Shown here in pieces: positions 214 through 61,825 of a stretch of 64,000 nt of DNA. A program made the translations under genes and the position numbers. Origin of the DNA: Octopus vulgaris (taxonomy: Eukaryota); the NCBI GenBank assembly GCA_951406725.2, contig OX597828.1:50096001-50160000 (forward strand), in the 5' to 3' direction. Position 1 is the stretch's first letter. Each line of letters begins with the position of its first letter. The notes below the pieces were generated by a model. It was not told where the DNA came from. It ran no database searches and saw only the letters and a list, made by a program, of their open reading frames with translations.

Positions 214-414
214 CTTTTACTCTTTTACTTGTTTCAGTCATTTGACTGCGGCCATGCTGGAGCACCGCCTTTAATCGAGCAACTCAACTTATTCTTTTTG
301 TAAGCCCAGTACTTATTTTATCGGTCTCTTTTGCCGAACCGCTAAGTTACGGGGACATAAGCACACCAGCATCGGTTGTCAAGCAATGCTAGGGGGACAA
401 ACACAGACACACAA

Positions 415-451
<37 letters not shown>

Positions 452-613
452 CGACGGGCTTCTTTCAGCTTCCGTCTACCAAATCCACTCACAAAGCTTT
501 GGTCGGCCCGAGGCTATAGTAGAAGACACTTGCTTAAGGTGCTACGCAGTGGGACTGAACCCGGAACTATGTGGTTGGTAAACAAGCTACTTACCACACA
601 GTCACTCCTACGC
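214..613 (-). mobile_element. tRNA-derived SINE family A
   Basis: Sense head gagtg(g/a)ctgtgtggtaag (A box), ggttcagtccc (B box), internal TA/TG microsatellite, tail gaaacaagtaaaagagtaaaa; many copies in window. Confidence 0.9.
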
Positions 614-1557
614 CTTGTTTCTAAGTGGAAGAGGTTCTTTAACCTTTAACACACTGGATTTTCTCTAGAATCGTTTCCTTTACTTCAGGGGAGAGAACTC
701 ATACGATGACATAATGCGCCTACAGATATTTGTTTTCATGCCTGTATTTTGATACCATCCCTTAACTTCTCTTGTGTCTCCTGAAAGGTGGTGTCAATGG
801 CTTAACACTACCACTAGACATGTTGTCTGCCTCTAGTTAAGTCGAATATGCTGCAAACATTCCAGCAAAGTTTGTAGTTTGAGGATACTTTTCTTTCCCG
901 CCCTTCAGCCAACATCAGAGGCCCTGTAAAAGGTCAAGTCGTTGACCTCTCTCTTGACTAAATGCATGAGATCTAAAATATCTACTAATTCAATAATTTT
1001 TGATGTCTTATTACCAGGATCGAAAATATCCTCTTCAAATATAATGATTTTTTCCTTTTAATAAACTTGCATTAATTATATCAGTTATTAATATCTCATA
1101 CAGTTATTAATCTTTTATACAGCAACGACTTAATTTTCACTTTCTTGTGCATTTGAAAACATCATTTTATTCTAGTACATTAATTTTATTTTCAAATGAA
1201 TCAAACGAATTTTTTAATTGTATACGAAAAATTAATTACAAGTTCGGAAGATTAGTGAAGTCTATGTGTTGTAAGGAGTGTAGAATATGGCATTTCGTCG
1301 CTCTGGTTCTGTGTCTGAGAATAAGGAAACACGGTCGGAATCACTGAGACAGCGAAGTGTGCTTGATGATGTGAGAGGCGAGAAGTTAATGAAGTGTAAG
1401 GAGCAAAGGAAAAAGGCCAAATATTTAAACAGAAGGATCACTCAATACTTTTAGTAGAGTAAATTTTATTAAACTTTTATATGGAGAAAGTTGCCAGTGA
1501 CTTTGAAGTACTGACTAGCTCAGAGTTAATTCATGTATATATAAATAAATAATAAAT

Positions 1558-1780
1558 GCACCCTTTTAAAGCATAGCCAGGCTCATGGGCCCGGTTTCTC
1601 GGTTTATATGGAGTATGTGTTCTCGCAGCGTTACTCACTTTTGCCAGCTGAGTGAACTGGAGGAACGTGAAATGAAGTGTTTTGCCCAAGAACACAACGC
1701 GTCGCCCGGTCCAGGAATCGAAACCACAATCTTACGATCATGGTGCTGACACCCAAACCACTAAGCCACGCTCCTCCACC
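1558..1780 (-). mobile_element. SINE family B-related subfamily (also 28003-28240 minus, 50868-51110 plus)
   Basis: Head gtggag(g/a)cg(c)gtggcttagtgg; body ttgggcaaaacacttcatttcacgtt. Confidence 0.8.
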
Positions 1781-1797
1781 ATATATATATATATATA

Positions 1798-2945
1798 ATT
1801 TCGCCAATCTCTTTCTTGGCTACATTGAGGCCCAAGTGTTCTCCCAGTTCTCTGGGCCGACCCCCGAACTATACGGTCGCTATATCGACGACTGTGTAGG
1901 TGCCACCTCCCTTTCCCGGGAACTTCTCGGCCAATTCATCTCTTTCCTTTCCAACTTTCACCCCTCTCTTCAATTCACCTCCACCATCTCCAACACCTCT
2001 GTCAACTTCCTTGACATCTCTCTCCGCATCGATCACCCCTCCAGCTCTCTCACCACCACCGCCTTCTTTAAACCTACGGATTCCCACCTCTATCTCAACT
2101 TCTCTTCCTCCCACCCCTTCCACACCAAACGAGCCATCCCCTACTCCCAGTTCCTCCGCCTCCGACGTTTGTGCAGCCGCGACCAGGATTTCGAGACCCA
2201 ATCTCAATACCTGGCCCGCATGTTCAGACTCCGAGGTTACCCACCCACACTCCTCTCTGATGCCCTCACCCGCGCCCGTCGCATCGACCGCACTACCGCC
2301 TTGTCTCCTTCCCCCCGCCCACCCCCCAACCGCACCCCCTTCCCCCTCCTTTTCCACCCCTCTACCCTACCCCTTCGTCGCAAGATACTACGTGCCTTCC
2401 GTCGCCTCCAGCTTGATCCCACCACCCGCCCCATTTTCCCTAACCCACCCCTGTCCTCTTTCAAACGAGCCCGCAATCTGCGTGACCTCCTGGTCCACAG
2501 CACCCTCTCCCCTTCCCCCTCAGCCCCACACGGATCATTCCCTTGCTCTAGATCCCGCTGCAACACTTGCCCCTTCATCACCAACACCACCGCTGTCACC
2601 GGCTCCAACCTGCATACTGTACGCATTAGGCACTCTTTTACGTGCACCTCGTCTGGCCTTATTTACTGCATTAAATGCAACCTATGCGGGATGCTGTATG
2701 TAGGTCAGACGGGACGCCGGTTGTCCGACCGTTTCACTGAACACTTGAGGGACGTTCGCCTACACTCTTTTTCTCCCGTCGCACGCCACTTCCGCTCGGC
2801 CGGCCATTCCCGAGATGACATCTCAGTGTTTGGTCTCGCCCCCCACAATGGTCGCCCACTTTCCAGGCTCCACTTGGAGCAACGCTACATCTTCACCCTA
2901 CAAACTACCACCCCACACGGACTTAACACAGCCCCCTCCTCTTGA
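1798..2945 (+). CDS. Penelope-like retroelement ORF, 5'-truncated (RT C-terminal half + Cys linker + GIY-YIG endonuclease), Neptune-like architecture
   Basis: Open frame NFANLFLGY...RYIDD...FLDI...FKPTDSHLYL..SSHP..KRAIPYSQFLRLRRLCS, then CSRSRCNTC, GLIYCIKC..C..YVGQTGRRLSDRFTEH, PHGLN. The ORF-track start at 1677 lies in upstream SINE/(TA)n and is not part of the element. Confidence 0.93.
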
Positions 2946-7100: not shown

Positions 7101-7557
7101 ATGTATATTCTGGCTAGTACATGCTATTATTGAATTGTTAATCAGAAATTCTAGCGCAGCTGGCGGTCATTTGTAGCTATTCTACTGAAGCATCGTGTTA
7201 TCCACTTGTTTTGACTTATTGTATGGAATTGAGTTTTCGGACATGAGTATGCCGAAACTACACTGATTCATGTTTCCATGGCTAACGAGAGGTATTCCGT
7301 TAATTGACTTTCAGTTGTCTCACTATATTTTGACTACATATAAATGTATACACATACATACATACATACATACATACATACATACATACATACATACTTA
7401 CACTAATACGTACATATACACATATACGCATGCGCGCGCACATTTGTGAAATTATTCGATCATAAAGAATTAATGGCCTGATTCTTACTTTTGGAGGTTA
7501 TTTTGGTCAGCCTTCTCTTATAGCAGAACATTTTCATTCCCCTGTAACCAAATCATT

Positions 7558-13187
<5,630 letters not shown>

Positions 13188-13362: not shown

Positions 13363-13456
13363 GTGTGTGTGTGTATACAGGTAAATATACAGGTAAAGAA
13401 TGTTTCGTCTTTGTTTTTCTCTTCATCAGCTGGAGAACCATTGAAATCATTGACAG

Positions 13457-13886
13457 TAGGAGTGGCTGTGTGGTAAGTAGGTTGCTAACGAGCCACATAG
13501 TTCCGGGTTCAGTCCCACTGCGTGGCACCGTGGGCAAGTGTCTTCTACCATAACCTCGGGCCAACCACAGCCTCGTGGGTGGATTTGGTAGACGGAAACT
13601 GAAAGAAGCCCGTCGTATATATGTATGTATATATATAAATATATATGTGTATGTATGTGTGTCTATGTATGTTTGTGTGCTTGTGTTTGCCCCCCCCCAA
13701 CCAACACCGCTTGACAACCGATGCTGGTGTGTTTACGTCCCGTAACTTAGCAGTTCGGCGAAAAGAGACCGATAAAATAAGTATTAGGCTTACAAAGAAT
13801 AAGTCCTGGGGTCGTTTTGCTCGACTAAAGGCGGTGCTCCAGCATGGCCAGAGTCAAATGACTGAAACAAGTAAAAGAGTAAAAGA
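13457..13886 (+). mobile_element. SINE family A, full length
   Basis: Same head, body and tail as 214-613. Confidence 0.9.
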
Positions 13887-18692: not shown

Positions 18693-18932
18693 TATTTCTT
18701 TATTACCCATAAGGGGCTAAACACAGAGGGGACAAACAAGGACAGACATAGGTATTAAGTCGATTACATCGAACTCAGTGCGTAACTGGTACTTATTTTA
18801 TCGACGCCGAAAGGATGAAAGGCAAAGTCGACCTTCGACCTCGGCGGAATTTGAACTCACAACGTAACGGCAGACGAAATACCGCTAAGCATTTCGCCCG
18901 GCGTGCTAACGTTTCTGCCAGCTCGCCGCCTT
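18693..18932 (-). mobile_element. SINE family C, Tx1-like tail subfamily, with 11-bp TSD ttcatgttacc
   Basis: Head aaggcggcgagctggcagaaacgttag, B box gagttcaaattcc; TSD at 18682-18692 and 18934-18944. Confidence 0.9.
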
Positions 18933-20165: not shown

Positions 20166-20429
20166 TAAAACTGCAATCGTAAAGATGGATCTCCAGCTTA
20201 GCGTTTTATGGTGTTATTGAAGGTAAACACAATATGATGGCTGTCTACATTCATGTCTGGACATTTTTACAAAGCGCGTCAAAAATGGTTTGAGGCTCAA
20301 ATTGAGAGAAATCTGCATATTTTCGCCTTGCACAAATAAGGGTATAAAATTAAGTGTGGTGGTAAACACTCTATATTAAATTTACTTAACCGTCATTTAT
20401 TCATTTAACTGATAATCATTCTTTGTGGT

Positions 20430-20800
20430 GTGGAGGCGCAATGGCCCAGTGGTTAGGGCAGCGGACTCGCGGTCATAGGATCGCGGTTTCGATTCCCAGA
20501 CCGGGCGTTGTGAGTGTTTATTGGGCGAAAACACCTAAAGCTCCACGAGGCTCCGGCAGGGGATGGTGGTGATCCCTGCTGTACTCTTTCACCACAACTT
20601 TCTCTCACTCTTACTTCCTGTTTCTGTTGTACCTGTATTTCAAAGGGCAGGCCTTGTCACTCTCTGTGTACTCGAGAACTACGTTAAGGGTGCACGTGTC
20701 TGTGGAGTGCTCAGCCACTTACACGTTAATTTCAGGAGCAGGCTCTTCCGTTGATCGGATCAACCGGAACCCTCGTCGTCGTAACCGACGGAGTGCTTCC
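20430..20800 (+). mobile_element. tRNA-derived SINE family B (tRNA-Arg-like head; resembles octopus OR-type SINEs)
   Basis: ggaggcgcaatggcccagtggttagggcagcggactcgcgg..ggtttcgattccc A/B boxes; tail cgtcgtaaccgacggagtgcttcca, also seen at 1-27. Confidence 0.85.
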
Positions 20801-23467: not shown

Positions 23468-23795
<328 letters not shown>

Positions 23796-24191: not shown

Positions 24192-24667
<476 letters not shown>

Positions 24668-25907
24668 AGTAGCAGTTGAGCACTGGAATCGATGTAATCG
24701 ACTTGCACCACCTCCCTCGAAATTGCTGGCCTTGTGCCAAAATTTGAAACCAATATAAGGTTAATGAGTAGGATACTCTCAGAAGTTTTCAAATTTGAAA
24801 TCGCTCCCCATCCCGTTGACAAATCTCTTTAAAAAAAATCCACGTGAAAAAAAAAATAAAAAACAAAATGCACCCAAGACTAAAACGATAATTGAGTATA
24901 AATTGCTTTGAACAATCTCGTGAAGTATTTAATATTGGTTGGGGTCCCACGCCTGACTTGTTTCATTAACCACGAGTCGGAATACATACGAATTAATGAC
25001 GTCAAAATCCTAATTTTATTACAATCAATTAGCATTAGCATTTAGCTTTTAGCTGTTCGTATCCTTATTAACGGCGGACTTCACGATATGCGAGCAGTCA
25101 CAGGCTTTAAAAAGAAGCCACAGTAAAAGACAGCAGAAGCCCTAATCGAAATCGTAAAAAGAGCCGCAGATCTACTGTTACTCTTTTACAGTCACAAATT
25201 GGTTATTAAAACGAGTGGAACCATTTATATTAAACTCTTTACTGTTAAATGGTAATCGATGCATGAGGCCACCAGAGCCAAATATATTTCTTTTTTTTTT
25301 TTTTACAATCCAGGAATCGCTTTTAACCTACAGAAAAAAAACAACTCTAAAAATATATAAAAAAAATACTTAGTTATGTAGTTACGAGCGGCTCTCAATC
25401 TATGAGAGGCTATCAGAAAGAAATTGATGCCTTGATCAGTAAAAAATTGGAAAACCGTCAACTGGCTACCATATTAGTGTGTCATCGTGTATACATCAAT
25501 AAAATTGATGCATTCGCCTCCTGAGAAGGAATAATATATAAGAAGATGAAAGTGATAAGAAAACGTATTCATTTGGCGAGATTGAACAAGAAGAAAATTT
25601 TAAAGAAGATTTGAAGACCTGCATAACAGTGTTTGGTAATTTATTGTAGGGCGGCGGGGTTCGTTCGATACGCAAGGAATGTCTGCTCAAGTGCTTCTTT
25701 GACTTGAAAGGCAAAGTGAAACTCTTGACGGACGTTAAACGTATTTCCATTATGTAATTAAAAGATGAAAGCTGATGATGTGATTTCGAAATTTATAGTG
25801 AATCTGATTAGATAGTTCAATGATCTGAAAACGGTGGCTGAGTTTGGAGTTAAAAAAACAAAACAAACAAACAAACAAACAACAGTGACAACAGAAACAA
25901 CAGCAGC

Positions 25908-26110
25908 AGTGGAGGCGCAATGGCCCAGTGGTTAGGGCAGCGGACTCGCGGTCGGTCGTAAGAACGCGGTTTCGATTCTTAGACCGGACATTGTGAGTGT
26001 TTATTGAGCAAAAACACCTTAGCTCCACGAGGCTCCAGCGGGTGTGTGTGTGTGAAAACCCCAGCTGTACCCTTTCACCACAACTTTCTCTCGCTCTTTC
26101 TTTCTACTTC
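25908..26110 (+). mobile_element. SINE family B, 5' part
   Basis: Similarity to 20430-20620. Confidence 0.85.
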
Positions 26111-26624
26111 TGCCACAAAGCAGAAGAACCATGGTGTAACCCACTATGGTGTGGTAAACTTTCAGACCCTAGTCTAGATTGCGAATCCTCTGTACCCCAG
26201 GATGGTTCAGCTCTCCACCCATTAAAAGCCACCGTTTACGGAATGAGGATAACAACGTAGCTTTCGCACCCGTGCAACCGCCAGTCTATCGCGTGTGGTG
26301 GGTGGATCTTCAAGTTGCCACACGCATTCTTAGTAGCTTAGAGTAGGCTCGAATTAGAGATTATTGTTTGTAGCTAATGGCGTGAGTCCTGATTGGAAGA
26401 AGAAGAAGACAACAGCAGAAAGAGTTAATCCACCGTTGCAACAAACATTTTTATACTTGGTATATATTAGAAATATGAATAGATATTAAAATGTTCGCGA
26501 ATATCGGTACGTCGCTGTATATGTATATATACATACATACCCATGCACATACACGCACTCACACGCTCACACACAGAGGCGCACACACACACGCGTGCAC
26601 ACACACACTCGCGCACACACAGAG

Positions 26625-28002: not shown

Positions 28003-28236
28003 AAATGCGCCCTTTTTAAAGCCTAGCCAAGCTCATGGGCCCAGTTTCCCGGTTTCTATGGCGTATGTGTTCCCCAGCTGGACGGGACGCCAGTCCATCG
28101 CAGCGTTACTCATTTTTGCCACCAACGTGAAATGAATTGTTTTGCTCAAGAACACAACGCATCGCCCGGTCTAGGAATCGAAACCACAATCTTACGATCA
28201 TGGTGCTGACACACTAACCACTAAGCCACGCGCCTC

Positions 28237-33517: not shown

Positions 33518-33960
33518 CACATTGTATCGGCCTTCTGCCAATGCCCTAAGGCAACCGTTCAGAATGTAATTCAGGGTGCAGAGAACTGGTTTACACTGCT
33601 TGTAGGATGGGTTCTCCAGTCTGCCACATATTTTAAGGTTAGTTGGTAATAGCAAGAGGTCACAAAAAGAAGGACAAGTTTTCATCGTCAGTGATTCAGA
33701 GTTCCCCCAGGTTAATGGGTCGTCGTGTCCCACTGCATCGATTATCCCTAGTAGACAAGTCCTATCGCTTTTATATGGCGATCTACCTCTGTTGAACCGC
33801 GGATCCTTTGCACTGGCGTTGGTATTTTCCCAACTCATCGTACAGTAGCGGAATAGTCCTTGTCTTACTTAACCAACATATTCCAAAATCTCCTGGTAGG
33901 TTTCCGCTTCCTTCAAAACCTCCTCGGGCTTTCACTTCTTGTCGCCTTTTATAGTCTTGA
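33518..33960 (-). pseudogene. Hero/NeSL-like (RLE-type) LINE fragment, zinc-knuckle region
   Basis: DLLLLPTNLKICG..PSYKQC..CTLNYILNGC..ALAEGRY resembles the CCHC region preceding the RHD motif. Confidence 0.6.
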
Positions 33961-34143
33961 TGGTGTGTTTGGGTTTCTCATACTCACATAGGAATAGTCT
34001 AATATTTAACTTAAACTTAACTATAATATTCGATTTTCCATTAAGATAATCGGCTGATAATCGGTCAAACACACAACGCACTCACACGCACACACACACG
34101 CGCACACACAAACACAAACACAGACACACACACACAAGCACGT

Positions 34144-35992: not shown

Positions 35993-36446
35993 GGGGGCGA
36001 GCTGGCAGAATCGTTAGCACACCGGACAAATACTTAGCAGCATTTCATCCGTGATTACATGCTGAGTTCAAATTCTACCGAGGTCAACTTTGCCTTTCAT
36101 CCTTTTGGGGTCGATAAAATAAGTACCTATTTCTTTATTACCCACAAGGGGCTAAACATAGAGGGGACAAACAAGGACAGACATAGGTATTAAGTCGATT
36201 ACATCGACCCCAGTGCGTAACTGGTGCTTAATTTATCGACCTCGAAAGGATGAAAGGCAAAGTCGACCTCGGCGGAATTTGAACTCACAACGTAACGGCA
36301 GACGAAATACCGCAAAGCATTTCGCCCGTCGTGCTAACGCTTCTGCCAGCTCGCCGCCTAATAAAATAAGTATCGATAAAATAAGTACCGGTTGAGCAAT
36401 GGGGATCGGTGATATCGACTTACCCCTTCCCCTAAAATTGCTGGCC
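35993..36446 (+). mobile_element. SINE C (alternative tail) interrupted by an antisense SINE C (36128-36359)
   Basis: Host resumes after duplicated tcgataaaataagtacc (36111-36127 / 36373-36389). Confidence 0.88.
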
Positions 36447-36610: not shown

Positions 36611-36831
36611 CTCTTTACTCTTTACTCTTTTACTTGTTTCAGTCATTTGACTGCGGCCATGCTGGAGCACCGCCTTTAGTCGAGCAAATCGACCCCGGGA
36701 CTTATTCTTTGTAAGCCCAGTACTTATTATATCGGTCTCTTTTGCCGAACCGCTAAGTGACGGGGACATAAACACACCAGCATCGGTTGTCAAGCAATGC
36801 TAGGGGGACAAACATAGACACACAGACACAT

Positions 36832-36890
<59 letters not shown>

Positions 36891-37032
36891 TATGACGGGC
36901 TTCTTTCAGTTTCCGTCTACCAAATCCACTCACAAGGCATTGGTCGGCCCGGGGCTATAGCAGAAGACACTTGCCCAAGATGCCACGCAGTGTGACTGGA
37001 CCCGGAACCATGTGATTGGTAAGCAAGCTACT
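36611..37032 (-). mobile_element. SINE family A, full length
   Basis: Similarity to other copies. Confidence 0.9.
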
Positions 37033-37707
37033 TACCACACAGCCACTCCTGCTCAGAGTCTATATAAAAAATTAAACGATTCAAAATTGTTGATTGAAAA
37101 CCAGTCAAACATCGATTATGCTAAACAGAACTTATGAAAAAAAAAAAAAAGAGTAGAGAACAACAGACAGCGTGTATGAGGCACAATCATGGAGAGAGTT
37201 GGACAGATGGACACAGGAGGGAGACAGTCATACGATCAGTCAGACTGAGTTCAACTGGACTTGTCAACACGAACATTTTGCAACACCCAATGACCAAATA
37301 ACTAACTTAAAAATCAGCCATAGTAGAAAACACCTGTACTCTTTTTCTCCCTCTTTTTCATCTACACTCAATCAAATAAGCTTTCCAATTTAGATCCTCT
37401 TACAGAATCAGATCACTATGTCAATCATATTTCTCCGACTTCATTACATTACTTACTTTTCTTGGAACGGACGTGTTCCATTTTCCACTATTAACAATAA
37501 AATATGATAAACTTAAACGTCAAGGTACTGTTATATTTCATTAGACCTGTCCATCACTATCAAAATATATTCCCTCATGTTCCCTTTCTCTCTGTTCACA
37601 TTGAATACCTTTATTTTTCTTATATTTTTTTTGTGTATTGATCATATCGCTTTTTTTTTCTTTCTATCTTACCTATTTTTCCTTTTTAACCTGTTTAAGT
37701 ATAAATA

Positions 37708-37807
<100 letters not shown>

Positions 37808-37808
37808 C

Positions 37809-38936
37809 TGACCGAACTGCAGTCGTGGATCAAAAAAAGGCCGAGGAAGGGCGAATGGCACCGCGAGTGTCGCGTTGCTCTCAAGCAACTCTGCCGTCTC
37901 GGGTCGACCTTGAGTGACTCCATCACAACCAAAGCATTCTATAGGGGATTAGTGGAGGGGAGGTACGACGACGAGGAATACCTGACCTGCCTGTTCGGGA
38001 CGACTTTCGGGCCAGAGCCCATGGACAACTTCCAGAGATCCCTGGCCTGGCAGTGCTACCGAGAAGCGCTACCCGTTCGGGATAAGCTCTACAGACACGG
38101 CTCGAGAAACACGGGGCCGACCTGTCCGAGATGCGGTCAGAGCGACGAAACCGTTCTGCACGCACTCGTGCAGTGTCCAACAATTTCCGACCTGTGTGCT
38201 TATGTCGAACAACTGCTGTCACGTGTGGGACGAGTCGGTTTATCAGCTGAGTCTATCGTCAATATTGTCACGCCTCCTTCCTTCAAACGGGAAGGAAGAG
38301 CTATTTTCATCATCCTTGTGGCTATGGCGAAAGAATGTATCAGGTGGACGCGTCTGAAAGGATTGGAGACAAATACTTTCCTCTCTGGTCAATCTCTCAT
38401 CAACTTCTTCAAGTACCACTTGAAAAGGAAAGTGAGAGTAGAGAGGCAAGTTTTGTCTTGCGAATGTTTTAAAAAAAGATGGGTGAATGACGAAGCCACC
38501 TTGAGCATAATCCTATGAACCCAGAAATTGAAAATAGAGGGTTACCCACTTGCAAACAAATGTGGTAACATATAACTATATTGACCGAGGTTACCGTGGT
38601 TTTTTTCGTAGGCTTTTCTTCTCACGGACAAACCTTATCTGCTTACCCCTTTACACCGTACATCATGACACTGTGATACACGATCCCTATTGATCATTTT
38701 TTCCCTCTTCCCCTTTTTTCCTCTTTTTTCCTTTTCCTTTCTTTTGTTTCTTTTCCTTTTTTTCCTTTTTTTCTTTTTTTTTTCCCTTTTACGATACCTT
38801 TTGATCGAAAACCTACGCCACTTTTTTTTTGTTTCTTCTGTTTTTTGTTTTTTGTTTTTTTCATCCCCTAAAAGAAAAGCTCTACCTTGTAATTTGTCCC
38901 ATCTGTGTGCAGCCCTGTGTGGCCAATAAAGAAACT
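37809..38936 (+). mobile_element. Tx1/L1-clade LINE 3' end (C-terminal zinc finger + 3' UTR) inserted in (TCTA)n
   Basis: W...REALPV...CPRCGQSDETVLHALVQCP zinc-finger motif; T-rich 3' UTR; aataaagaaa end; TCTA repeats on both sides. Confidence 0.85.
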
Positions 38937-38952
38937 TATCTATCTATCTATC

Positions 38953-39360
38953 TTTGTTCTTTATTGTCCACAAGGGGATAAACATAGAAGGGACAAACAA
39001 GGACAGACAAAGAGATTAAGTCGATTACATCGACCCCAGTGCGTAACTGCTACTTAATTTATCGACCCCGAAAGGATGAAAGGCAAAGTCGACCTCGACG
39101 GAATACAGAACGTAACGGCAGACGAAATACCTATTTCTTTACTAGCCACAAGGGGCTAAGCACAGAGCGGACAAACAAGGACAGACAAACGAATTAAGTC
39201 GATTACATCGACCGCAGTGCGTAACTGGTACTTAATTTATCGACTCCGAAAGGATGAAAGGCAAAGTCGACCTCGGCGGAATTTGAACTCAGAACGTTAC
39301 GGCAGACGAAATATGGCTACGCATTTCGCCCGGTGTGCTAACGTTTCTGCCAGCTCACCG
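38953..39360 (-). mobile_element. Two stacked SINE C copies
   Basis: Second copy's tail joins at gaaatacc (39131) within the first. Confidence 0.85.
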
Positions 39361-39447
<87 letters not shown>

Positions 39448-39689
39448 GTCTGTCTGTCTGTCTGTCTATCAATCTATCTACTCACACGCACACACTCATA
39501 CATACACCCACTCACACACAAGCATACATACACACATACACACACAAACGTACATACACATGTGCACATACACGCAGACACATACATATATACACCTACC
39601 CATCCACACATACATATGAATATTAATTAAGCCAGTGAAGAGTCGAATCGGTTTAATTACTGAGTACTGCTGAAATGATATGTATCAAA

Positions 39690-45007: not shown

Positions 45008-45169
45008 CCGTTCTATTAGAGGCACAAGACCTGAAATTTGTGGGGTGGGGTCTAGGATGAAAGGCAAAGTCTACCTCGGCGGAATATGAACTTAGAACGT
45101 AGCGATGGGCGAAATACTGCTAAGCATTTCGTCCAGCGCGCTAACGTTTCTGTCAACCCGCTTGATATT

Positions 45170-46588: not shown

Positions 46589-47021
46589 TTTATCATCATC
46601 ATCATTATATTATTAGTTGCAGCAGTGGTAGTATTAGTAGCTGCAGCAGCAGAAGTATCTATGCAATAGTTGAGCACATAACAAGTTTGTTGAATGTGTA
46701 ACAACATTGAAAATGAAGAAAAGTTTAAAATGTCACATAGTCAACGTTGAATTTCTCTTTAAAAATAACACACATGTAGCTAGAAGCTCATAATAGAGCC
46801 TATGTGGTATTTCGAATTTGTAGATTTTTGATTAAATATTTCGCAAAATAATGTAAAGAATGACAGAATACTCTTATGGAGAATTTATAAAATCATAAAT
46901 TTAATGTTGTTACTTATTTTTTCGTACACACACAGACACACACAAAACAGACAGACACACACACACATAGACATACACAAACGTATAGTGTTTTATATCA
47001 TATACCAAATATTCTGTTTCA

Positions 47022-47190: not shown

Positions 47191-47764
47191 CTATTTACTA
47201 TCTCAATTGCAGAAATAAATATTGCAGACTTATTGAGCTAACCATTCAAATCAATCTCCGCCAAATAGTCTTCTGCATTAACGTTGTACCGATTCTGCCC
47301 AAGGTAGCCTTTCAAAGGCATTAGTATTTAGGGCGAATCTACATAGCAATAGAAAAGAAAAGGAAAATAAACTACCTCAAAGGCGATGTCTCTCAGAATG
47401 TCCATTTTAGAGAATATTCAGAGAACACATAAGCTTTCGAACATTCGGTACGGAAAATTATTACGTCTTTGTCAAAGTATTTATGGAATCAATAGGTAAA
47501 CAACGTTGAAAATTTCAAAATAATGTAGTGAAACATGCTGCTGCATATGAAAATGTCTTGAATAGAATGTGAAGTGCCTCTTTCTCTCGCTCCCTTTCTC
47601 TTTCCCTTCCTCTCTTCATGTATACGCAGACACACATGCGCACACACTCGCATGCACACACACACACACACACACACATTCTAATTCATAATTTAATATT
47701 CTTTCACGTGTACAACGCTGCACACACCAACAAATAGACTCCATTCTATTTGCATATAATATAT

Positions 47765-47992
47765 ATTTGCTACCCACAAGGGGCTAAACACAGAGAAGAC
47801 AAACAAGGACAGACAAACGGATTAAGTCGATTACATCGACCCCAGTGCGTAACTGGTACTTAATTTATCGACCCCGAGAAGATGAAAGTCAAAGTCGACC
47901 TCGGCGGAATTTGAACTCGGAACGTAACGGCAGACGAAATACGACTACGCATTTCGCCCGGTGTGCTAACGTTTCTGCCAGCTCGCCGCCTT
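47765..47992 (-). mobile_element. SINE family C
   Basis: Similarity; flanking duplication tatttgcatataa. Confidence 0.88.
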
Positions 47993-49238: not shown

Positions 49239-49398
49239 TATTTCTTTATTACCCACAAGGGGCTAAACACAGAGCGGACAAACAAGGACAGACATAGGTA
49301 TTAAGTCGATTACATCGACCCCAGTGCGTAACTGGTACTTAATTTATCGACCTCGAAAGGATGAAAGGCAAAGTCGACCTCGGCGGAATTTGAACTCA
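49239..49398 (-). mobile_element. 5'-truncated SINE C inserted into a decayed SINE B tail
   Basis: TSD cacaga(c/t)acatgtacc at 49223-49238 / 49397-49412. Confidence 0.88.
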
Positions 49399-49951: not shown

Positions 49952-50162
49952 TCTTTTACTCTTTTACTTGTTTCAGTCATTTGACTGCGGCCATGCTGGA
50001 GCACCGCCTTTAGTCGAGCAAGTCGACCCCGGGACTTATTCTTTTTGTAAGCCCAGTACTTATTATATCGTTCTCTTTTTGCCGAACCGCTAAGTGACGG
50101 GGACGTAAACACACCAGCATCGGTTGTCAAGCAATGCTAGGGGAACAAACACAGACACACAA

Positions 50163-50200
<38 letters not shown>

Positions 50201-50371
50201 ATATATACGACAGGCTTCTTTCAGTTTCCGTCTACCAAATCCACTCACAAGGCATTGGTCGGCCCGGGGCTATAGCAGAAGACACTTGCCCAAGATGCCA
50301 TGCAGTGGGACTGAACCCGGAATCATGTGGTTGGTTAGCAAGCTACTTACCACACAGCCACTCCTGCGCCT
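49952..50371 (-). mobile_element. SINE family A, full length
   Basis: Similarity to other copies. Confidence 0.9.
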
Positions 50372-50867
50372 ATTATCTGTTATCCTTTCCAACTAAACTT
50401 TTCTGTTCTCTTTCATCAACTTGACATCTGTTTCTCTCATCACCTAAAATCCTTTCTACTATAGGCATAAGGCCTGAAATTTGCGGGGAGGGGGTAAGCC
50501 GATGACATCGACCCCAATGTTAAACTGATACTTATTTTATCGACTCTGAAAGGATGAAAGGCAAAATCGACTTCAGCGGAATTTTAACTTAGAACGTAAA
50601 AACGGACGAAATGCCGCCAAGTATTTTGCCCGTCATGCTAAAGATTCTACCAGTTTGAGGCCTTTCTGATAAACTAAGACATCTGTTCTGTCGCATTAAA
50701 GCAACAACTACCCTTTTATCCGAGTAAACTCTTCTGCTCTGTTTCATTAACTCGATGCCACAAGGGTCATCATTTTAGAGAGTCTTAATTCGTTATTGGA
50801 GTACACGATATGAGGTTGGCTGTTTGTGAAGGCGAGGTGAGACTGGGTGTGTTAGTAATGCGAGGAA

Positions 50868-51110
50868 GTGGAGGTGCGTGGCTTAGTGGTTAGGATGTTG
50901 AACTAGTGATCGTAAGACTGGTTTCGATTCCTGGACCCGGCGATGAGTTGTTTTGAGCAAAACACTTCATTTCACGTTGCTCTAGTCTGCTCAGTTGGCA
51001 AAAATGAGCAACCCTGCGACGGACCGGTGTTCCGTCCAGGTGGGTAATATATACGCCATGAAACCGGGAAATCAGCCCTTATGAGTCGGCACGACTCGAG
51101 AAGATACCTT
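50868..51110 (+). mobile_element. SINE family B-related subfamily
   Basis: Similar to 1558-1780. Confidence 0.75.
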
Positions 51111-56596: not shown

Positions 56597-57088
56597 CTAG
56601 ACCTTTAGAGAGGCAACTTTTGTCTAGCGAATGTTTAAAAAAAAGATGGGTGAATGTAGCAAGGATGGCACGTATGAATGACGAAGCCACCTTGAACATA
56701 ATCCTATGAACCCAGAAATTGAAAACAGAGGGTTACCCACTGGCAAACAAATGTGGTAACATGTAACAATATTGACCGAGGTTACCGTGGTCTTTTCCGT
56801 AGGCTTTTCTTCCCACGGATAAACCTTATCTGCTTCCCCCTTTACACATGACACTGTGATACACGATCCCTATTGATCGTTTTTTCTTTTTCCTTTCTTT
56901 CTTTCTTTCTTTTTTTCTTTTCTTTTGTTTCTTTTGTTTCTTTTCTTTTTCTTCTTCTTTCCCTCTTACAATCCCTTTTGATCGAAAACCTACCCCACTT
57001 CTTTTTTTCTCCAAAAAAAAAAGAAAGAAAAGCTCTACTTTGTAATCTGTCCCGTCTGTGTGCAGCCCTGTGTGGCTAATAAAGAAAC
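56597..57088 (+). mobile_element. Second, shorter copy of the same Tx1-like LINE 3' end in (TCTA)n
   Basis: High similarity to 38440-38936; TCTA repeats on both sides. Confidence 0.88.
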
Positions 57089-57426
57089 ATATCTGTCTAT
57101 CTATAAATGTTTTTAGTTCGATCTTTCACTCAATACATCTTCTCACTCGCTTCTGCTCTTCGTCTCTATGTACACAGACAGACAGACAGACACACACACA
57201 CATACACACACACACACTCACACTCACACACACACACACGCATTTCTTAACACGATCGTTAAAAACATTAAACTTCTACTTTTGATAATAAACTTGTTTT
57301 TAAAAAAGAAATAGCTTACAAGATACGAAAAAAAAAATTAATCTCTATTCTTACCTGCCTCTCTCTCCCTCTCTTTCGCTCTCTTTTTCTTTGTATGTAT
57401 AACGACACATGCGTACACACGTACAC

Positions 57427-61519: not shown

Positions 61520-61825
61520 TTTGTTTTGTTCCTTCTCGAGCCGCGCTTGGCTCAGAGGGCCGGTTTCCCGGTTTCCTTGGCGTATAGGTTCCCCACCTGG
61601 ACGGAACGCCGGTCCGTCGCAGGTGAGCTGCAAGATGCAGGAGGAAAGAGTTAGAGAATGTTGTGGAGAAAGAGTCAGCAGAAGTTCGCCATTACCTTCT
61701 GCCGGAGTCGCGTGGAGCTTAGGTGTTTCGCTCATAAACACATACATCGTCTGGTCTGAGATTCGAACCGACGATCCTTCGACCGCGAGTCCGCTGCTCT
61801 AACCACTAGGCCATGTACCTCCACA
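61520..61825 (-). mobile_element. SINE family B variant
   Basis: Head gtggaggtacatggcctagtggttagagcagcggactcgcgg on minus strand. Confidence 0.85.

What the first reader, a model, noticed from the sequence alone, without database searches (positions are those of the whole stretch)
38890..39000. SINE C shares its 3' tail with the Tx1-like LINE (SINE-LINE partnership in the L1 group)
Seen: LINE end tttgtcccatctgtgtgcagccctgtgtggccaataaagaaa vs SINE C consensus end tttgtcccctctgtgtttagccccttgtgggtaataaagaaa, 35/42 ungapped by my alignment, both with a small stem-loop (gcc-ctgtgt-ggc vs gccc-cttgt-gggt). Here the two tails sit convergently, separated by a few TATC units. Established: stringent SINEs borrow the 3' tail of their partner LINE, best documented for CR1/L2/RTE. 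Inference: a tRNA-SINE mobilised by a Tx1-type LINE.
Basis: partly seen in the sequence, partly recalled or inferred. Interest (0 to 1): 0.7.

Follow-up and report, generated by a model that had tools for sequence, protein, structure and literature searches.

The report
Octopus SINE with Tx1-type LINE tail
A short repeat (SINE) in this likely octopus genome ends in nearly the same 42 bases as a microsatellite-flanked L1-group retrotransposon, so it likely borrows the copying enzyme of that element or a close relative, a tail-sharing partnership not found in print for animal L1-group elements in the papers searched.

Summary
Observation confirmed. The LINE end (38893-38934) matches the SINE C majority tail at 35/42 without gaps. 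The best of 300 shuffled tails anywhere in the window was 28. A second LINE copy (57046-57087) has the same end and no SINE beside it, so the tail belongs to the LINE. The LINE is L1-group: its ORF2 piece folds like human L1 ORF2p (Z 14.4). Tx1 membership is likely but untested: both copies lie in (TATC)n, but no named Tx1 reference was obtainable. Both elements lack poly(A), end 2 nt after AAAGAAA, have 11-17 bp duplications and are of similar age. Against this exact family being the mobiliser: the SINE inserts at GGTA sites (3 of 5) or in the microsatellite in the opposite orientation. The tails also differ by 17%, while copies differ by 2-8%. Hairpin covariation is not significant. Older copies of the same SINE carry two other tails with the same loop motif, which points to tail swapping. 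Verdict: a real SINE-LINE tail pair with an L1/Tx1-type LINE. The mobiliser is this family or a sister; capture of a SINE end by the LINE is not excluded.

The parts
37802..38518 (+). 3' end of ORF2 of a 5'-truncated L1/Tx1-type LINE, copy 1 (wrist and C-terminal zinc-knuckle region; no RT retained)
   Evidence: zf-RVT E=3e-7; 62-66% identical to 5 longer LINE proteins, 3 with RT; model matches L1 ORF2p residues 808-1254, Z 14.4
38519..38892 (+). LINE 3' UTR with pyrimidine-rich stretches
   Evidence: shared with copy 2 at 164/174 and 107/118 aligned columns
38893..38936 (+). LINE 3' tail (42 nt plus 2 terminal nt) with weak hairpin and AATAAA, no poly(A)
37708..37807 (+). (ATCT)25 microsatellite, 5' flank and target of LINE copy 1
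38937..38953 (+). 17 bp TATC spacer between the two tails (likely target duplication of the LINE)
38954..39363 (-). SINE C quasi-dimer: head, body, tail (39134-39175), second body restarting at the internal GGTA, tail (38956-38997); flanked by (GATA)n on its own strand
   Evidence: 178-bp period
39361..39480 (+). (TCTA)30, remainder of the microsatellite target
56606..57089 (+). LINE copy 2, shorter, same tail (57046-57087), (TATC)n on both sides, no SINE next to it
   Evidence: tails 39/42 identical
18693..18931 (-). SINE C full-length copy, 11-bp duplication starting GGTA
36128..36359 (-). SINE C full-length copy inserted antisense into an older copy of the same lineage, 17-bp duplication starting GGTA
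47760..47991 (-). SINE C full-length copy with irregular 3' end, 13-bp duplication (GGTAC lies just upstream of its 5' copy)
49239..49398 (-). SINE C 5'-truncated copy, 17-bp duplication (1 mismatch) starting GGTA
23607..23795 (+). older SINE of the same head/body with a different tail (type 1); a type-1 3' fragment also at about 24673-24750
50452..50664 (-). older SINE of the same head/body with a third tail (type 2); another at about 45008-45161

Best explanation
SINE C and an L1-group LINE share a 42-base 3' end, and the SINE likely took it from this LINE lineage and is likely copied by the reverse transcriptase of this family or a close sister Tx1-type family, which would recognise the tail rather than a poly(A). 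Shown: shared tail, L1-group protein, same end position, similar duplication lengths, similar age, no poly(A), and a sharp tail exchange within the SINE lineage. Inferred: an older SINE (polymerase III head plus CORE-like body) swapped its 3' module for the LINE end by template switching. ORF2p binds the tail hairpin and starts cDNA synthesis 2 nt after AAAGAAA. The insertion site is chosen partly by pairing of the nicked DNA with RNA running past the tail: UAUC repeats for the LINE, GGUA for the SINE. That would explain why one enzyme type gives different targets. The tail-to-tail arrangement at 38.9 kb is likely two successive insertions into one microsatellite, not a functional unit.
For: 35/42 identity, far above shuffles. 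2 of 2 LINE copies carry the tail, one with no SINE nearby. Identity falls to 8-12/40 directly upstream. L1-group assignment: domains; RT-bearing relative P0004: L1 ORF2p E about 1e-50, R2 1e-24 or weaker; top 4 Foldseek rows are L1 ORF2p, though E>0.1; Z 14.4, rmsd 3.5, 199 aligned; R2 chains 9.8 and 7.9. In 2 of 2 LINE copies and 5 of 5 SINE insertions the duplication starts 2 nt after the AAAGAAA position; junctions were placed by hand and are ambiguous inside repeats. Duplications are 11, 13, 17, 17 bp for the SINE outside microsatellites and about 14-17 bp for the LINE. LINE copies are 347/372 identical; SINE C bodies are 92-98% identical. SINE bodies with other tails are 78-87% identical to C bodies and diverge sharply after GATGTAATCGACT.
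Against: Targets differ: the LINE is in TATC orientation in 2 of 2 copies. The SINE is at GGTA in 3 of 5, at (GATA)n (opposite orientation) in 1 of 5, and irregular in 1 of 5. In the published Tx1/SINEU case the shared target was the main argument for partnership (PMC4494074). The tails differ at 7 of 42 positions, more than copy decay explains. The SINE loop (CTTGT) equals that of the older SINE tails, not the LINE's (CTGTGT). The hairpin is weak, without significant covariation. Only 2 LINE and 5 SINE insertions are available, and nothing outside the window was found.
Confidence: 0.75

Rival explanations
1. Reverse direction: the master LINE captured the 3' end of a SINE C copy (giving it an AATAAA signal), and the SINE's true partner is another LINE clade.
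For: All three SINE tail types share a CCTTGTG-N8-(A/T)GAA layout: 8 of 9 window matches are SINE tails, 0.46 expected by chance (pattern derived from these tails). The LINE deviates in the loop. SINEs are abundant in octopus genomes (11.6%, PMC13282606).
Against: Outside the hairpin the C tail is unrelated to the older tails (at most 17/27 around it), which fits module exchange from different donors. The LINE lacks the 19 SINE bases upstream of the shared 42 and the TAGGTA end. Both LINE copies end at the SINE's register and without poly(A).
Confidence: 0.13
2. The tail came from this LINE lineage, but the SINE is now moved by an unrelated or relaxed LINE; the homology is a relic.
For: Different target preference and orientation; 17% tail divergence.
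Against: Same end register, similar duplication length and similar age; no poly(A) for a relaxed enzyme to use.
Confidence: 0.09
3. Chance, or a local artefact (inverted duplication of the adjacent SINE tail, or shared poly(A) signal only).
For: 10 of the 35 matches are the A-rich end; the two tails are adjacent and inverted.
Against: LINE copy 2 has the tail without any SINE. The adjacent tail is not the best match (33 against 34 for distant copies). 25/32 remains without the A-rich end, where fixed-register shuffles reach 22 at most.
Confidence: 0.03

Closest known systems
Stringent SINE/LINE pairs (UnaSINE/UnaL2, MIR/L2, tortoise SINE/CR1, Bov-tA/BovB; Table 1 of PMC3747384)
   Same: Polymerase III SINE with a short LINE-like 3' tail and a predicted hairpin.
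   Different: The partner here is L1-group. The SINE/LINE table seen (section 21, part 1 of 2) lists no animal pair with an L1 or Tx1 tail.
Plant and algal L1-tail SINEs (ZmSINE2/3 with LINE1-1_ZM; SINEX-3_CR with L1-1_CR; PMC3472496, PMC3747384)
   Same: L1-clade LINE sharing a structured 3' end with a SINE; 45 nt conserved in the monocot case.
   Different: Those are the only three L1-tail SINEs of that 2012 survey, all in green plants. This one is animal, microsatellite-targeted and has no poly(A) or poly(T) end.
SINEU / Tx1-Mar of crocodilians (PMC4494074)
   Same: SINE proposed to be mobilised by Tx1 elements.
   Different: That case rests on shared targets and snRNA heads. SINEU ends in poly(A), and no LINE sharing the SINEU-1 3' end was found. 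Here the tail is shared and the target is not.
Kibi, Koshi and crocodilian microsatellite-targeting Tx1 families ((TC)n, (TTC)n, (TTCC)n, (TTTC)n; PMC4494074)
   Same: L1-group LINE inserted in a simple repeat in one orientation.
   Different: Target here is (TATC)n; phylogenetic relation not tested.
Octopus CORE-SINEs OR1/OR2 (Ohshima and Okada 1994, known only from citations in PMC4824008 and PMC4758252)
   Same: Octopus tRNA-type SINE. The body looks CORE-like by eye against a CORE-SINE printed in a supplement; the tail exchange point falls near the end of that motif.
   Different: OR1/OR2 sequences were not obtainable, so the SINE family itself may already be named. Its partner LINE was not found in print.

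Membership tests
L1 group of non-LTR retrotransposons (L1/Tx1) | ORF2 with APE endonuclease, RT and C-terminal zinc knuckle, no RNase H or restriction-like endonuclease | tested here: met
   Window piece has zf-RVT. P0004 (62% identical to it) has RT + zf-RVT; P0010 (54% to P0004 in the RT region) has endonuclease + RT + zf-RVT. Endonuclease and RT are absent from the window itself.
L1 group of non-LTR retrotransposons (L1/Tx1) | C-terminal region folds like L1 ORF2p wrist/CTD | tested here: met
   Z 14.4, rmsd 3.5, 199 residues; R2 9.8 and 7.9; others 5.0 or less. No RTE, CR1, L2 or I protein appeared in the PDB hits as a comparator.
Tx1 clade | RT phylogeny groups with reference Tx1 elements | not testable with these tools
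   No hit listed was named Tx1. The tree places the element with an Argonauta protein and 5 unnamed ones (100/100) but has no clade references.
Tx1 clade | Target-sequence preference | tested here: met
   2 of 2 copies are flanked on both sides by (TATC)n, which covers 1.6% of the window; n is small.
Stringent SINE/LINE pair | Homologous 3'-terminal sequence | tested here: met
   35/42
Stringent SINE/LINE pair | Conserved stem-loop supported by compensatory changes | tested here: inconclusive
   An extended hairpin is the minimum-energy fold in 7 of 8 tails with shifting inner register; 91-93% of cells pair, but covariation is not significant.
Stringent SINE/LINE pair | Same insertion signature: duplication length and end position | tested here: met
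   11-17 bp; both end 2 nt after the AAAGAAA position (hand-set junctions)
Stringent SINE/LINE pair | Same target preference as the partner LINE | tested here: not met
   0 of 5 SINE insertions in TATC orientation against 2 of 2 LINE copies
Stringent SINE/LINE pair | Concurrent activity | tested here: met
   LINE pair 93% identical, SINE C bodies 92-98%; few copies
Stringent SINE/LINE pair | Trans-mobilisation dependent on the tail | not testable with these tools
   needs an assay
tRNA-derived SINE | Internal A and B boxes | tested here: met
   6 A/B-box matches in the window, all heads of this lineage, including 4 of 4 full-length SINE C copies, spacer 53-54 nt (box patterns recalled)
tRNA-derived SINE | Detectable homology to a tRNA | tested here: inconclusive
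   ARAGORN 0; no Rfam tRNA match in 2 of 2 copies tested, common for diverged SINE heads
CORE-SINE (octopus OR1/OR2) | CORE central domain | tested here: inconclusive
   resemblance by eye only; no alignment run

The most novel reading that the evidence does not exclude
Octopus Tx1-type LINEs are stringent, poly(A)-independent elements that read a 3' hairpin. One SINE lineage has hopped between several related donors (three tails sharing one loop layout). Target choice is set by RNA read-through pairing, so the same machinery sends the LINE to (TATC)n and the SINE to GGTA sites. This would be the first animal L1-group SINE/LINE pair with a shared tail.
Probability: 0.35. Interest if true: 0.7.

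Novelty: new variant of a known kind. Interest (0 to 1): 0.5.

Why it matters
Whether L1-group elements were ancestrally stringent, and how mammalian L1 became a poly(A) reader, is an open question (PMC3472496, PMC4176376). The known L1-tail SINEs are three from green plants. A high-copy animal SINE with a Tx1-type tail gives a defined 42-nt RNA for binding and trans-mobilisation tests. It also offers a natural experiment on whether endonuclease or RNA-DNA pairing sets the target. It would further name a driver of part of the large octopus SINE expansion. The mechanism class itself is well known.

Tried and rejected
Copies outside the window: protein-based and tail-pattern scans of bacterial and archaeal genomes found none, nor did blastn of plasmids and phages. 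No eukaryotic DNA collection was available; metagenome and viral contig collections stayed unchecked. Named Tx1 references: none among the listed hits; the ESM Atlas gave only 'hypothetical protein' zf-RVT clusters; cluster names could not be looked up. Rfam: the 150 listed of 227 whole-window hits are simple-repeat noise below gathering score. Joint insertion of LINE and SINE in one event was rejected by reasoning: priming at both nicks would put the tails outward, not facing. The match at 26102-26120 is antisense to another SINE family and was treated as chance. Position 46955 is a TG repeat. Whole-tail folds gave z from +1.5 to -2.9, with only 1 of 12 beyond -2. No other LINE 3' end was recognised in the window to compare. 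Literature searches gave no report of this pair or of an animal SINE with a Tx1 tail. Repbase, Dfam, SINEBase tables, Ohshima and Okada 1994 and the supplements of PMC3531059 and PMC4494074 could not be seen and may hold one.

Full report
Setting. The window is 36% G+C and rich in microsatellites and SINEs. It is likely an octopod: the nearest named relative of the LINE's RT-bearing homologue is from Argonauta hians (71%), and a piece of this LINE occurs in a predicted Octopus bimaculoides protein (83% over 19% of the query). The species is not determined.

Observation. The LINE end at 38893-38934 matches the majority of six SINE C tails at 35 of 42 positions without gaps, and single copies at 29-34. 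Fixed-register shuffles (20,000) averaged 12.6 with maximum 26. The best window-wide match of 300 shuffled tails was 28. Removing the A-rich last 10 bases leaves 25/32; fixed-register shuffles then reach 22, and 2 of 300 window-wide shuffles reach the single-copy value of 24. The 40 bases upstream share only 8-12; a gapped alignment adds 5 bases for LINE copy 1 only. A second LINE copy at 56606-57089 has the same tail (39/42) and no neighbouring SINE. The tail is therefore part of the LINE and not a local copy of the adjacent SINE.

The LINE. Copy 1 keeps the last 238 codons of ORF2 and the 3' UTR. It has a zf-RVT zinc knuckle and is 62-66% identical to five longer proteins, three with RT. Further relatives have endonuclease, RT and zf-RVT in about 1150 residues. 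One RT-bearing relative hits human L1 ORF2p at about 1e-50 and R2 at 1e-24 or weaker. An AlphaFold model of the window's own piece (pLDDT 84, 85 sequences) matches L1 ORF2p residues 808-1254 at Z 14.4, above R2 (9.8, 7.9) and unrelated chains (5.0 or less). Foldseek ranks L1 ORF2p first but with E above 0.1. L1-group membership is well supported. Tx1 membership could not be tested by phylogeny: the tree of 67 rows (drawn from the 144 aligned) has no named clade references. It is inferred from targeting, since both copies have (TATC)n on both sides and such arrays cover 1.6% of the window. Microsatellite targeting is described for Tx1 families (PMC4494074). In copy 2 the 14 bases at the 5' junction and after the tail have an imperfection at the same position, which supports a real duplication. 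Neither copy has poly(A), despite an AATAAA.

The SINE. Five insertions carry tail C; one is a dimer, giving six tails. All four full-length copies have A and B boxes 53 nt apart, though ARAGORN and Rfam see no tRNA. Duplications are 11, 17, 13 and 17 bp, and undeterminable inside (GATA)n. Three start with GGTA (background 0.0024 per position), and the dimer's second unit restarts at the SINE's own internal GGTA. In both elements the duplication begins 2 nt after the AAAGAAA position (junctions set by hand). LINE copies are 93% identical and SINE C bodies 92-98%, so their ages overlap. Older copies with the same head and body (78-87% to C) carry two other tails, switching sharply after GATGTAATCGACT. 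All three tail types share CCTTGTG-N8-(A/T)GAA: 8 of 9 window matches are such tails, against 0.46 expected, but the pattern was derived from them. Their stems differ around a common CTTGT loop. Tail exchange is a known SINE behaviour (PMC4824008, PMC5786205, PMC11481361; passages).

Structure. Seven of eight 42-nt tails fold into a similar extended hairpin, but z-scores are +0.1 to -2.4. The LINE and SINE inner stems are one base out of register, and covariation is not significant in either register. In the three GGTA copies, a subfamily-specific TACCTAT at the tail start pairs with the terminal ATAGGTA in both minimum-energy and centroid folds (z -0.8 to -1.3). This hints that GGUA is part of the SINE RNA. 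The hairpin remains a prediction.

Mechanism. Shown: shared tail, L1-group enzyme, common end register, duplication size and age, and a modular tail swap. Inferred (0.75): the SINE took the tail from this LINE lineage and is copied by its ORF2p or a sister family's, which recognises the tail. A sister family is at least as likely as this exact one, because the tails differ by 17% and the targets differ. The LINE lies in TATC orientation in 2 of 2 copies and the SINE in 0 of 5. One reconciliation, untested, is that RNA running past the tail pairs with the nicked DNA and chooses the site. The tail-to-tail layout is best read as sequential: the SINE entered the array first. The LINE then inserted 17 bases from the new array end, as copy 2 did about 15 bases from a natural array end (n=2). 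Rivals: LINE captured a SINE end (0.13); relic homology (0.09); chance (0.03).

Known systems and novelty. [quoted passage not shown] Crocodilian SINEU is attributed to Tx1 by shared targets, without a shared tail found (PMC4494074, passages and sections 15-16). Bivalve SINE partners are CR1, CR1-Zenon, L2 and Nimb (PMC11481361, passages). Octopus repeat papers list abundant SINEs and active L1-Tx1 but, in the parts seen, no partnership (PMC13282606 first third and supplement search; PMC8967140 and PMC9115989 passages). Also seen as passages: PMC4758252, PMC4824008, PMC5786205, PMC3531059, PMC4176376. Nine searches found no report of this pair.

Verdict. Real, non-random and of a known kind, with an unusual partner group. 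New variant of a known kind, interest 0.5. It is limited by small copy numbers, an untested Tx1 placement and a target mismatch.

Noticed in passing
window 1671-2945 (+): 424-codon open frame with a weak GIY-YIG hit (E=0.004, below cut-off); looks like the 3' part of a Penelope-like element.
   Followed up: partly
window 7556-13187: 5.6-kb degenerate (TTCT)n array, about 1400 units; (TTTC)n is a target of some Tx1 families elsewhere, but no LINE piece was seen in it by tblastn.
   Followed up: no
window, whole: Strand bias: TATC arrays total 968 bp on + against 32 bp for GATA, and all five SINE C insertions are on the minus strand.
   Followed up: no
window 18758-18749, 36193-36184, 49304-49295 (-): One SINE C subfamily has three substitutions at the tail start that make it complementary to its own 3' end (TACCTAT/ATAGGTA); these are the three GGTA-target copies.
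   Followed up: partly
window 33520-34070 (-): G+C-richer stretch with broken reading frames that look protein-coding; unidentified decayed element.
   Followed up: no
window 230-615, 13455-13869, 24192-24667, 36634-37053, 49969-50373: A second abundant SINE-like family with an internal (TA)n/(TG)n tract; 24.7 kb shows it fused to a type-1 tail fragment of the SINE C lineage.
   Followed up: no
window 20429-20626, 25909-26112, 61633-61825; 1555-1779, 28004-28236, 50868-51071: Further tRNA-headed SINE families with variable 3' parts.
   Followed up: no
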